A stretch of 64,000 nt of DNA from an uncultured Verrucomicrobiae bacterium. Lineage in GTDB: Bacteria > Chlamydiota > Chlamydiia > Chlamydiales > Rhabdochlamydiaceae. The position numbers were made by a program, and so were the translations under genes. Shown piece after piece: positions 13,085 through 14,336 of the stretch. The first letter of the stretch is position 1; each line of letters opens with the position of its first letter. The notes beneath the pieces are model-generated. The model did no database searches, was not told the origin of the DNA, and saw only the letters and a program-made list of their open reading frames with translations. The stretch spans positions 192,001-256,000 of the forward strand of contig CAWFUG010000008.1 of NCBI GenBank assembly GCA_963818965.1, in the 5' to 3' direction.

Positions 13085-14336
13085 TCGTCCAGCGCAGCGC
13101 GCAGTCTTGAGTCCTCGAGACTGTGCGCAAAGCGATCTGCCAGTCGAACGCCTCAAATCCCACTCTCTTTTTTTGCTGCGGGCGGTTCGCACGAAGTAGA
13201 TGTCCGAAAAAACGCCCCTCTCCCTTTACCATTTCCACCTTCAAAGTGAAGAGAAGTCCCTGAGAGAAAATTTCCACATCTTGTCCTAGTTGAAACGTCG
13301 TTCCTTTTTCACCATTGATGAGAATCTGATGGTCGGGATGAAAATTTAGGTAAAAGGAAGATTCGATCGACTCCTCCCCTTCTGGGGGTACTTCTAGAGG
13401 AAGGGTCATTTCTATACCCCGCGCGCTTGAGGATGGTGCATTTGAGCGCGCGGGGTATAAATAATCCCCCTCAATAGACCACGCTGCCTTTCTCGCATCA
13501 AAAGAGAGAGAGTGGAGCTGTTCCTTATTTCCCCAAAAATGCAAGTAAGGTTTAGAAAAAGCGAGCGCTGGGACGGCTTTCTCTTCCCCCACACTCTGCT
13601 CATCGAAAGGCTGGACCAAAGCGCCCAGCAAATGGACCCGCTCTCTTAGAAGCGCGCGTCGAGAATATTCTGAGCCAAAATAGTGCCCCATGAATAAATC
13701 GAATAGAGTAGGAGCCGGCTCGCCCTCCTCTTGTACCGGTAGAAAAAACGGAGCCCCAAGGGGAGCGTGCCAATGGACCATTGCGGCTTCTAGCCAGTCT
13801 TTTCTCTCCACACCCTTCGATTTTGCCAGCTGGTAGGCGATTAACAGCTCGATACATTCTTCAGCAGAGTGGGGAACGCTACCGGGTGTGTTTTGGGGGT
13901 CGGTGTAGCTTTTGAGTTTGAAATGAGAGGGATCCGCCGACTGGACAATTCTCTCCATGACGCTACTGAGTCGAGAGGGCAATTCAGGGCCCAACACAGA
14001 GGAAAAATCAGCCACGATCCAGTGCAATAGCGGCAAGAGATCGATCCCTGTCGTACGACGACGGCACCGCGGGTAGTCATGGACATAGATGGGAAAGTTC
14101 CCCTCCACTTCGAAAGGAAGGAGCCTCTCCAATAACCCCTTCGCCTCCTGGATATTTTCTACCAGGCGGCTTCTCAAAAGAGCCAGTGCATAGCAGAAAT
14201 TCTCCAGAAGCGGAATCGTATCGTGCCTCTCCTCTTTGGCCTCATGACAAAAGTGGATGAAGCCCGTCTGAGGACTTTTGCGTTTTGCCGCTGCTAAGAG
14301 ATTGAGATCAAAAGGGCGTCGTTGTTTTAGATCCAT
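13044..14336 (-). CDS. Conserved hypothetical protein carrying an in-frame palindromic insertion
   Basis: 430-aa ORF translationally coupled to the upstream HAD gene; 3' end overlaps the fabI 3' end. Confidence 0.8.
13413..13459. mobile_element. 47-bp MITE-like element (TATACCCCGCGCGC family) inside a CDS
   Basis: tataccccgcgcgcttgaggatggtgcatttgagcgcgcggggtata is an internally deleted relative of 18176-18260. Confidence 0.85.

What the first reader, a model, noticed from the sequence alone, without database searches (positions are those of the whole stretch)
13413..13459. Palindromic mobile element inserted in-frame inside a protein-coding gene
Seen: the 47-bp TATACCCCGCGCGC...GCGCGCGGGGTATA sequence is a deleted relative of the intergenic 85-bp element at 18176-18260. 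It lies inside the open 430-aa CDS. Removing it and keeping one TA takes out exactly 45 nt, turning [24 protein letters not shown] into GDYLEMTLP. Established: Rickettsia palindromic elements create protein sequence this way. Inference: an analogous, sequence-unrelated chlamydial element is adding peptide segments to proteins, and the internal deletion may have been selected to restore the frame.
Basis: partly seen in the sequence, partly recalled or inferred. Interest (0 to 1): 0.85.

Follow-up and report, generated by a model that had tools for sequence, protein, structure and literature searches.

The report
Mini mobile hairpin inside chlamydial gene
A 47-base hairpin-shaped remnant of a jumping DNA element sits inside a conserved gene of an environmental chlamydia without breaking it, adding 15 amino acids to a surface loop, much as palindromic elements do in Rickettsia.

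Summary
Window 13413-13459 is a 47-bp hairpin (14-bp perfect ends, 19-nt loop) inside the open 430-aa gene 13044-14336(-). It encodes [15 protein letters not shown].

The insertion is real and recent:
- A 92%-identical metagenomic ortholog lacks exactly these 15 residues.
- One metagenome contig joins 13412 to 13458, skipping 45 nt, with TA at both ends.
- In a confident model the insert lies in a low-confidence loop between two strands.

The 47-mer is one of 12 such copies among 65 complete or near-complete elements in this 2.24-Mb genome (about 122 related loci).
- The parent form is 167 bp. The short form equals the parent minus 120 bp lying between two AGCGCG direct repeats.
- 17 of 65 copies lie inside long ORFs, and all 17 have a frame-neutral length.
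- A second 47-mer adds the same peptide to an ABC-2 permease. 57 of 58 orthologs are gapped there.

Its idea that the deletion was selected to restore the frame does not, because parent and deletion are both multiples of three.

No transposase partner and no expression data were found. The scan had already reported 167-bp copies of this family in this genome, and similar elements in other chlamydiae.

The parts
13413..13459 (-). 47-bp short-form palindromic element, read in frame on the minus strand as [15 protein letters not shown] (residues 294-308 of the host protein)
   Evidence: It is one of 12 47-bp copies in the genome.
13413..13426 (.). Left 14-bp terminal inverted repeat; its first two bases are the TA counted as the target-site copy
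   Evidence: One search reports the joint with TA..TA ends and 2 letters that fit either side.
13446..13459 (.). Right 14-bp terminal inverted repeat, a perfect complement of the left one, ending in TA
13427..13445 (.). 19-nt loop, equal to the inner part of one 34-nt arm of the long form. The junction with the right terminus lies in the shared hexamer AGCGCG.
   Evidence: comparison with the 167-bp copies printed
13044..14336 (-). Host gene: conserved hypothetical protein of 430 aa with a helical N-terminal domain and a C-terminal beta-sandwich. No Pfam or NCBIfam family.
   Evidence: 135 homologs at E<=1e-10. Model pLDDT 91.1. Weak fold likeness to polysaccharide lyases.
18176..18260 (.). 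85-bp intermediate-length copy of the same subfamily. It is intergenic, between ORFs 17256-18059(-) and 18285-18695(-).
   Evidence: -75 kcal/mol, z = -14
19493..19660 (.). 168-bp full-length copy of another arm subfamily of the same element family (G000:C8:211493-211660)
30163..30182 (+). About 20-nt solo fragment of an element arm (1 mismatch in the 14-mer) with no partner terminus

Best explanation
The 47 bp are a miniature derivative of a non-autonomous, hairpin-forming mobile element family (a MITE in behaviour) that is abundant in this environmental chlamydia.

The full element is 167 bp. It is an almost perfect palindrome that starts TATAC and ends GTATA, and it inserts at a TA, with some preference for a T-rich left and A-rich right flank, duplicating the TA. 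The short form keeps 33 nt of one arm plus the 14-nt opposite terminus. It equals the long form minus the 120 bp between two 6-bp direct repeats (AGCGCG). That is the product expected of replication slippage or microhomology repair across the hairpin.

At this locus a copy landed at the TA of the Leu293 codon of a conserved gene. This happened after the lineage split from a relative that is 92% identical in this protein. The net gain is 45 nt, or 15 codons. The frame in use has no stop, so the gene stays open, and the peptide lengthens a loop between two strands of the C-terminal beta-sandwich.

Frame neutrality is a property of the family, not of this deletion: 167-2, 170-2 and 47-2 are all multiples of three.

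Shown: the sequence, the copy number, empty sites at protein and DNA level, the frame and the loop position. Inferred: transposition by an unidentified enzyme acting in trans, the slippage origin of the short form, and that the protein is made and tolerates the insert.
For: Empty sites
- P0002 (410 aa, from a metagenome) is identical at 383 of the 403 aligned residues and has one gap of exactly 15 residues at the insert.
- A 253-nt contig of run X7 (10 mismatches) joins 13412 to 13458. The tool reports 'skips 45', ends TA..TA, 2 letters fitting either side.

Same gene in other relatives
- Between anchors W268 and F348, P0001 has 79 residues and P0002 has 64. The median of 81 homologs is 68, and only 2 of 81 reach 79.

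Structure
- AF2 model: pLDDT 91.1, pTM 0.89.
- The insert sits in coil 290-303, running into strand 304-311.
- Block 291-300 has pLDDT 54, against 91 and 93 two blocks away on either side.

Family
- 34 paired copies of this arm type; 122 related loci.
- 65 complete or near-complete elements: 20 of 167 bp, 12 of 47 bp, 7 of 170 bp.
- 17 of 65 lie inside ORFs of 150 aa or more. All 17 have (length-2) divisible by 3, against 0 of 23 with other lengths.

Second verified 47-mer
- The ABC-2 permease at G000:C9:192148-193476 carries the same peptide.
- 57 of 58 orthologs (71-82% identical) are fully gapped over the 15 columns.
- The insert again lies in a coil with pLDDT below 50.

Origin and target
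- The deletion junction is read from the copies.
- Flank preference: T at -1 in 54% and at -2 in 45% of 130 flanks.
Against: - No autonomous partner was found in the 87.85%-complete assembly. No DDE_3, mariner, Y1 or rve transposase was detected (the mariner control rang nowhere, so that search is uninformative). The only insertion sequence (IS) found, a DDE_Tnp_1 type, has unrelated ends.
- There are no expression data.
- No read or contig independent of the assembly spans the filled site at this locus.
- The DNA-level empty site rests on one contig at depth 2.2.
- In the 82-sequence alignment, distant homologs are not cleanly gapped over the 15 columns: 72 of 81 have 6 residues placed there.
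- 'Inside a gene' was judged by ORF length, not by a gene caller. A frame-shifting insert cannot appear inside an intact ORF, so the 17 versus 0 contrast is partly built in.
Confidence: 0.88

Rival explanations
1. Sub-variant A: a 167-bp copy inserted here (55 extra codons) and was later trimmed in place to 47 bp by slippage between the AGCGCG repeats.
For: - The junction is the same in all 11 copies of this arm type.
- The 47-mers carry at least 3 arm variants (TTGAGGATGG, TTAGGAATGG, TTAAGAATGG) that also occur in long copies. This suggests repeated, independent deletions.
- Other deletion classes exist: 85, 87, 95, 97 and 151 bp.
- The step from 167 to 47 removes 120 nt and would keep the frame.
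Against: - No relative or read shows a long copy at this site.
- Identical 47-mers sit at the same site in three diverged copies of another repeat, in both orientations. This fits insertion of the short form as a unit better.
Confidence: 0.4
2. Sub-variant B: the 47-mer is itself mobile, and its 14-bp ends suffice. It inserted here as a 47-bp unit.
For: - C7:27711, C9:475497 and C2:40378 carry the same 47-mer variant (0-1 differences) at the same position of three copies of a ~103-bp repeat.
- The two copies that aligned (C7 and C9) are only 87.7% alike over 130 bp.
- The loop occurs in both orientations.
Against: - Those three sites could descend from one composite, with later flipping of the loop.
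- The 11 'empty' copies of that repeat read GA, not TA, at the site.
- No enzyme is known.
Confidence: 0.45
3. The 15 residues are ancestral and were deleted in the relatives.
For: A single gap in a pairwise alignment is direction-neutral.
Against: - The DNA is a copy of a dispersed repeat with TA at both ends.
- 79 of 81 homologs have a shorter segment here.
- The same peptide occurs in two unrelated proteins.
Confidence: 0.02
4. The insertion inactivated the gene, which is now an intact-looking pseudogene or is not expressed.
For: - There are no expression data.
- The coding-strand RNA forms a -27.9 kcal/mol hairpin.
- According to review passages read, Correia-element hairpins in transcripts are cut by RNase III.
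Against: - The ORF is open over all 430 codons.
- Outside the gap, 383 of 403 residues match P0002, and 399 of 418 alignment columns (gap columns counted) score as positives.
- The insert sits in a variable loop.
- The stem is only 14-15 bp.
Confidence: 0.1
5. Assembly or sequencing artefact at a repeat.
For: The genome is a 12-contig assembly from a metagenome-like source. At least one odd inverted duplication exists elsewhere.
Against: - The copy lies 369 bp and 877 bp from the gene's ends in unique sequence.
- A near-identical strain's protein, P0243, carries the same peptide at another locus.
- The frame and the TA ends are exact.
Confidence: 0.03

Closest known systems
Rickettsia palindromic elements (RPE; Ogata et al. 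2000, 2002, seen only as summarised in passages of review PMC10969869)
   Same: - Palindromic repeats of about 150 bp in an obligate intracellular bacterium.
- Inserted many times in frame in unrelated genes.
- Each adds a conserved peptide judged compatible with the protein fold.
   Different: - Different phylum. Sequence relation to RPEs was not tested.
- Here a TA duplication and a natural empty site are documented.
- This copy is a 47-bp, 15-residue minimal derivative, not a ~150-bp unit.
- Only 17 of 65 copies are in ORFs.
Correia (nemis) elements of Neisseria
   Same: - Small elements with inverted-repeat ends beginning TATA.
- TA target duplication, and long and internally deleted size classes (these points are recalled, not from a call).
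- Hairpins in transcripts and inversion of the element (review passages).
   Different: - Sequence similarity to Correia elements was not tested; the host is a different phylum.
- Correia elements are mainly intergenic regulators carrying promoters and IHF sites.
- No promoter or IHF role was tested here.
MITEs derived from IS630/Tc1-mariner insertion sequences
   Same: - TA target-site duplication.
- Terminal inverted repeats.
- No coding capacity for a transposase.
- Presence/absence polymorphism between relatives.
   Different: - No DDE_3 transposase was found, and the mariner search was uninformative because its control rang nowhere. No longer element with these ends was seen.
- The whole element, not only its ends, is a palindrome.
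REP/BIME palindromes with RAYT (Y1) transposases
   Same: Size (20-40 bp versus 47 bp) and hairpin shape of the short form.
   Different: - No Y1_Tnp gene in the assembly.
- The ends are TATA, not the GTAG/CGTC tags named in the title and abstract of PMC3733652 (search listing only).
- REPs are extragenic.
In-frame palindromic elements reported earlier by this scan in chlamydiae (e1-7655021 and e1-3868245 in this genome; e1-7717259, e1-2152888 and e1-7729137 in others)
   Same: Same family (the first two) or the same behaviour (the others): hairpin elements inside chlamydial genes without frame loss.
   Different: Those notes concern long copies (137-297 bp). This report covers the 47-bp class, how it derives from the 167-mer, and empty sites at both protein and DNA level.

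Membership tests
MITE (miniature inverted-repeat transposable element) | Small size and no transposase gene | tested here: met
   47 bp here; the parent is 167 bp.
MITE (miniature inverted-repeat transposable element) | Terminal inverted repeats | tested here: met
   The 14-bp ends are perfect here. 42 of 57 complete copies are complementary at 14 of 14 positions; the filter required at least 12.
MITE (miniature inverted-repeat transposable element) | Target-site duplication | tested here: met
   The empty-site contig skips 45 of the 47 nt, with TA..TA ends and 2 letters fitting either side. 96-98% of 130 flanks carry TA; the selection required TATA ends for most copies.
MITE (miniature inverted-repeat transposable element) | Many dispersed copies, and presence/absence between relatives | tested here: met
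   122 loci and 65 complete copies. Empty sites in P0002, in the X7 contig and in 57 of 58 permease orthologs.
MITE (miniature inverted-repeat transposable element) | A cognate autonomous element with matching ends | tested here: not met
   No DDE_3, Y1 or rve transposase; the mariner search was uninformative. The DDE_Tnp_1 insertion sequence has other ends. The C4 arm pair is a large inverted duplication. The assembly is 87.85% complete, so absence is not shown.
Rickettsia palindromic elements (as a sequence family) | Sequence homology to RPE-1 to RPE-10 and occurrence in Rickettsia | not tested
   No RPE sequence was available from a tool. The host is a chlamydia judging by the source names of its homologs.
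RPE-like behaviour | In-frame insertion in unrelated genes, adding the same peptide at tolerated surface sites | tested here: met
   The same 15-residue peptide (one copy with a single substitution, R to Q) occurs in 3 unrelated proteins. Two cases were verified against orthologs. Both lie in low-confidence loops.
IS630/Tc1-mariner-derived MITE | DDE_3 or mariner transposase in the genome or its relatives | tested here: inconclusive
   0 matches in G000. The mariner control rang in no genome. Relatives were not searched.
REP/BIME | Associated RAYT (Y1) transposase and extragenic location | tested here: not met
   No PF01797 match. 5 of 12 47-mers lie in long ORFs.
Rfam RNA families | Score at or above a family's gathering threshold | tested here: not met
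   Only sub-threshold hairpin look-alikes, such as mir-610 at 33.4 bits against a threshold of 90.

The most novel reading that the evidence does not exclude
The family is built to live inside genes.
- Its three dominant lengths (167, 170 and 47 bp) are all 3n+2, so a TA-duplicating insertion never shifts the frame.
- Its long copies keep on average 2.4 of 6 frames free of stops, against 0.5 in shuffles.
- Its arms co-vary so that the hairpin is kept.
- The 47-bp form is itself an active minimal transposon (14-bp ends plus loop) that seeds 15-residue loops in proteins across this chlamydial family.
Probability: 0.3. Interest if true: 0.75.

Novelty: new member of a known kind. Interest (0 to 1): 0.55.

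Why it matters
This is a clean natural before-and-after pair for how selfish DNA lengthens a protein loop: a filled gene, a 92%-identical empty ortholog, and an empty DNA contig.

It also shows that the habit made famous by Rickettsia exists independently in Chlamydiae, another old lineage of obligate intracellular bacteria. The core of the element is found in 38 of 100 other sampled genomes of the same family.

I found no published account of such elements in chlamydiae in six searches of the held library or in term searches within the MITE review and one Rhabdochlamydiaceae genomics paper.

Practical consequences:
- These inserts can mislead ortholog alignments, domain boundaries and gene calls in chlamydial metagenome-assembled genomes.
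- The short form shows how a long palindrome decays to a stable, frame-neutral stub.

Tried and rejected
- No RNA holder was listed for the locus, so nothing can be said on expression.
- The strict 34-nt arm pattern gave 0 matches in genome contigs and metagenome contigs. Among 101 family genomes it matched G000 only. Arms vary by lineage, so this says little about the family; the core search replaced it.
- Same-genus genome G001 had no ortholog of the host gene.
- Candidate autonomous element at C4:10236-12633: it is a large inverted duplication carrying small toxin-antitoxin-like genes, not a transposon.
- The 1.2-kb DDE_Tnp_1 insertion sequence has ends unrelated to the element.
- Pfam and NCBIfam gave nothing for the host protein. 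Rfam gave nothing above threshold.
- The 955-aa host of a third 47-mer is an orphan. Its only hit is a near-identical strain that also carries the insert, so no empty site could be checked.
- The 82-sequence alignment gave no clean 15-column gap. I used the distance between conserved anchors instead.
- Idea that short forms are favoured in genes, for example to escape RNase III: 5 of 12 47-mers against 12 of 28 copies of 167-173 bp lie in long ORFs. No difference.
- Idea of a preferred reading frame: 3 of 4 same-subfamily 47-mers in ORFs use one frame. By my own arithmetic this has a chance of about 0.14 among 5 open frames, which is not significant.
- Look-up of the 47-mer in earlier findings by sequence: nothing.
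- One search was a mistyped reference (10 residues, too short). I did not repeat it.

Full report
**1. Observation**

The sequence at 13413-13459 is as described: a 14-nt terminus, a 19-nt loop and the exact reverse complement of the terminus, 47 bp in all. The 85-bp relative at 18176-18260 shares the outer 34 nt of both arms.

The terminus, with up to 2 mismatches, occurs 5 times in the window against 0.16 expected. None of 100 shuffles reached 5.

The element lies in the 430-codon ORF 13044-14336 on the minus strand. It is read as [15 protein letters not shown], residues 294-308. As RNA it folds at -27.9 kcal/mol on the coding strand, z = -6.7.

**2. The insertion is real and recent**

The host protein has 135 homologs at E<=1e-10. 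The nearest, P0002 (410 aa, from a metagenome assembly), matches 383 of the 403 aligned residues. It has a single gap of exactly 15 residues: GDHL is followed directly by EITLPLEV.

At DNA level, one 253-nt contig of run X7 (a rhizosphere metagenome; 10 mismatches) joins 13412 to 13458. The tool reports 'skips 45', ends TA..TA, and two letters that fit either side. This is one contig at depth 2.2 from a relative, not from the same strain. No contig independent of the assembly spans the filled site.

Orthologs in 18 related genomes (27-41% identical) are shorter in this variable region.

The 82-sequence alignment does not give a clean gap: 72 of 81 homologs have 6 residues placed in the 15 columns. 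The segment between the conserved anchors W268 and F348 is clearer. It is 79 residues in P0001 and 64 in P0002. The median of the 81 homologs is 68, and only 2 of 81 reach 79.

**3. Where it sits in the protein**

The AlphaFold2 model built with 82 sequences is confident (pLDDT 91.1, pTM 0.89). It shows a helical N-terminal domain and a C-terminal beta-sandwich.

The insert occupies the coil 290-303 between strands 285-289 and 304-311. Block 291-300 has mean pLDDT 54, whereas blocks 281-290 and 311-320 have 91 and 93.

Foldseek finds only weak likeness (TM about 0.4) to polysaccharide lyases with the same two-domain layout. Pfam and NCBIfam give nothing. The host's function stays unknown.

**4. 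The family**

Scanning the 2.24-Mb genome for the terminus gave 34 paired copies of this arm type: eleven of 47 bp, eight of 167 bp, four of 97 bp, and others.

A BLAST with ten long copies found 122 loci. 57 of them are complete TATA..TATA elements with complementary ends. With eight near-complete copies added by hand, the set is 65:

| Length (bp) | Copies |
|---|---|
| 167 | 20 |
| 47 | 12 |
| 170 | 7 |
| 168 | 4 |
| 97 | 4 |
| 169, 84, 57 | 2 each |
| other lengths | 12 single copies |

Arms differ strongly between subfamilies yet stay complementary within a copy. 42 of 57 are complementary at 14 of 14 positions.

Flanks show TA plus a modest preference for T at -1 (54%) and at -2 (45%).

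The exact arm of this subfamily was found only in G000 among 101 genomes of the family. The inner core of the 167-mer (roughly positions 27-141) was found in 38 of 100 other genomes and 23 of 40 genera, at 70-92% identity (72-85% for the longer core matches). Soil and peat runs X2 and X3 also hold copies with other flanks.

Source names on close homologs (Rhabdochlamydiaceae, Simkaniaceae, Chlamydiae bacterium) place the organism among environmental chlamydiae.

**5. How the 47-mer relates to the long form**

In each long copy of this subfamily, one arm continues past the 33rd base with AGCGCG. The same hexamer lies just inside the opposite terminus, 120 bp away.

The 47-mer is exactly the long form minus the stretch between these direct repeats. 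It occurs in both orientations, as expected, because either strand can be the one with that arm on the left.

The 85-, 87-, 95-, 97- and 151-bp copies are other internal deletions.

Because 167-2 = 165, 170-2 = 168 and 47-2 = 45, and the deletion is 120, every step is a multiple of three. It also fits poorly with the 7 of 12 47-mers that lie outside long ORFs.

Whether this copy arrived short or was trimmed in place cannot be decided.
- For repeated deletion: the 47-mers carry at least three arm variants that are also seen in long copies.
- For mobility of the short form: the same 47-mer variant sits at the same position in three copies of an unrelated ~103-bp repeat. The two copies that aligned are only 87.7% alike over 130 bp. 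The loop occurs in both orientations.

**6. Elements in genes**

ORFs of 150 aa or more cover 85% of the genome, but only 17 of 65 elements lie inside one with at least 10 codons on each side. The family is therefore depleted in genes.

All 17 have a frame-neutral length, and none of the 23 elements of other lengths lies inside an ORF (Fisher p = 2e-4). This contrast is partly built in, because a frame-shifting insert breaks an ORF. ORF length is also only a proxy for a gene.

Five of the 12 47-mers are in long ORFs. Three of them encode the same peptide as here (one with a single substitution, R to Q).

- **ABC-2 permease (G000:C9:192148-193476).** This case is verified. 57 of 58 orthologs (71-82% identical) are fully gapped over the 15 columns and one has a single residue there. 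The insert lies in a coil with pLDDT below 50 in the domain between the first two membrane helices.
- **955-aa protein.** It is an orphan whose only hit is a near-identical strain with the insert.
- **Collagen-like protein and the fused kinase-like/queuosine-salvage protein.** These cases were not checked against orthologs.

Long copies keep on average 2.43 of 6 frames free of stops. Mononucleotide shuffles have 0.54 and random genomic 167-mers have 1.28. The palindromic symmetry makes open frames come in pairs, which explains part of this.

**7. Related inserts elsewhere**

A permease ortholog from another organism (P0149) carries a 56-residue insert seven residues upstream in the same loop. 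It matches translations of this genome's 170-mers (46% identity over 54 residues, E = 7.6e-12 against a small database).

A homolog of the host gene itself (P0058) has an extra ~54 residues in a nearby loop that weakly match 167-mer translations (E = 6e-5).

**8. Mechanism: what is missing**

No DDE_3, Y1 or rve transposase was found in the 87.85%-complete assembly. The mariner search is uninformative because its control rang in no genome.

Four DDE_Tnp_1 genes exist. The three near-identical 1.2-kb IS copies have unrelated ends.

A pair of element arms 2.4 kb apart on C4 belongs to a large inverted duplication, not to a transposon.

The enzyme that moves the family is unknown, and transposition is inferred from the TA duplication and the empty sites.

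**9. Comparison with the literature**

Passages of the MITE review PMC10969869 describe RPEs as palindromes of about 150 bp, inserted 44 times in R. conorii genes, nearly half of them as in-frame fusions. They also describe Correia elements whose transcripts are cut by RNase III and which can invert. The review does not mention Chlamydia (0 occurrences).

Six searches turned up no account of such elements in chlamydiae:
- 'chlamydia' with 'palindromic element' and 'in-frame'.
- 'miniature inverted-repeat' with chlamydial genus names.
- 'Rickettsia palindromic element' with 'open reading frame' and 'insertion'.
- 'miniature inverted-repeat transposable' with 'chlamydia' (13 papers, none on the subject judging by title or abstract).
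- 'Rhabdochlamydia' with 'palindromic' (2 unrelated papers).
- 'palindromic' with five other chlamydial names (CRISPR only).

The Rhabdochlamydiaceae genomics paper PMC9723776 discusses transposases but has no occurrence of 'palindrom' or 'MITE' (passages only). Subscription journals and supplementary files were not searched.

**10. Earlier notes of this scan**

Two notes on other parts of this genome (e1-7655021, cupin; e1-3868245, sulP) report long copies of the same family in frame. My inventory independently recovers the cupin copy at C2:34952 inside a 428-aa ORF.

Three notes on other chlamydial genomes report similar behaviour. The phenomenon had therefore been found before by the scan. 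What is new here is the short class, its derivation from the 167-mer, and the empty sites.

**11. Verdict**

This is a real, recent, in-frame insertion of a miniature palindromic mobile element into a conserved gene. It is RPE-like in behaviour and a MITE in anatomy, except that no partner element is known. It is a new member of a known kind, of moderate interest.

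Noticed in passing
G000:C7:27608-27710, and at least 14 further sites (e.g. C11:279509-279608, C8:316248-316353): A second dispersed hairpin repeat of about 103-110 bp. Three diverged copies (C7:27711, C9:475497, C2:40378) carry the same 47-mer variant at the same position, with the loop in both orientations. C2:50537 has a truncated element at that site.
   Followed up: partly
window 18163-18175, and G000:C11:259378-259397: A short motif (AATAGCCGAGAT, followed at the C11 site by an inverted-repeat partner upstream) adjoins two element copies. 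In the window the 85-mer appears to have landed inside it.
   Followed up: no
L031 (G000:C4:9800-13100), arms at C4:10236-10312 and 12557-12633: A large perfect inverted duplication carrying duplicated small Fic/Doc-like and HTH antitoxin-like ORFs, each half ending in a partial element arm. It may be a real palindrome or an assembly artefact.
   Followed up: partly
protein P0149, residues 147-202: An ABC-2 permease ortholog from another organism carries a 56-residue insert in the same loop, seven residues upstream of this genome's 15-residue insert. It matches translations of the 170-bp elements (E = 7.6e-12).
   Followed up: partly
protein P0058 (homolog of the host gene), segment between the W and F anchors: About 54 extra residues in a neighbouring loop weakly match translations of 167-bp elements (38.6% over 57 residues, E = 6e-5). 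This may be an independent insertion in the same gene family.
   Followed up: partly
genome-wide; e.g. G000:C2:34952-35118 against C1:218176-218342 against C3:52681-52850: Arm sequences differ greatly between subfamilies but are complementary within each copy (14 of 14 in 42 of 57), while the inner core is conserved across genera. It is not explained whether this reflects selection on the hairpin, several cognate enzymes, or one arm being copied from the other.
   Followed up: partly
G000:C8:301433-301469 and G000:C9:369751-369837: A 37-bp copy supplies the last 16 codons and lies just before the stop of a 393-aa ORF. An 87-bp copy lies within the first 36 codons of a 418-aa ORF. Elements of frame-shifting length thus sit at gene ends.
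   Followed up: no
G000:C8:394030-394076: A 47-bp short form of a different arm subfamily, with a different junction (19-bp stem, 9-nt loop). It also lies in a long ORF (715 aa, P-loop-like N-terminus fused to a queuosine-salvage domain).
   Followed up: partly
G000:C1:260607-261808, C2:149484-150685, C9:457887-459084: Three near-identical copies of a 1.2-kb DDE_Tnp_1 insertion sequence, with ends unrelated to the palindromic elements.
   Followed up: partly
G000:C8:186941-187108: A chimeric 168-bp element whose left arm is of this subfamily and whose right arm is of another. It lies next to a fragment of the second repeat family.
   Followed up: no
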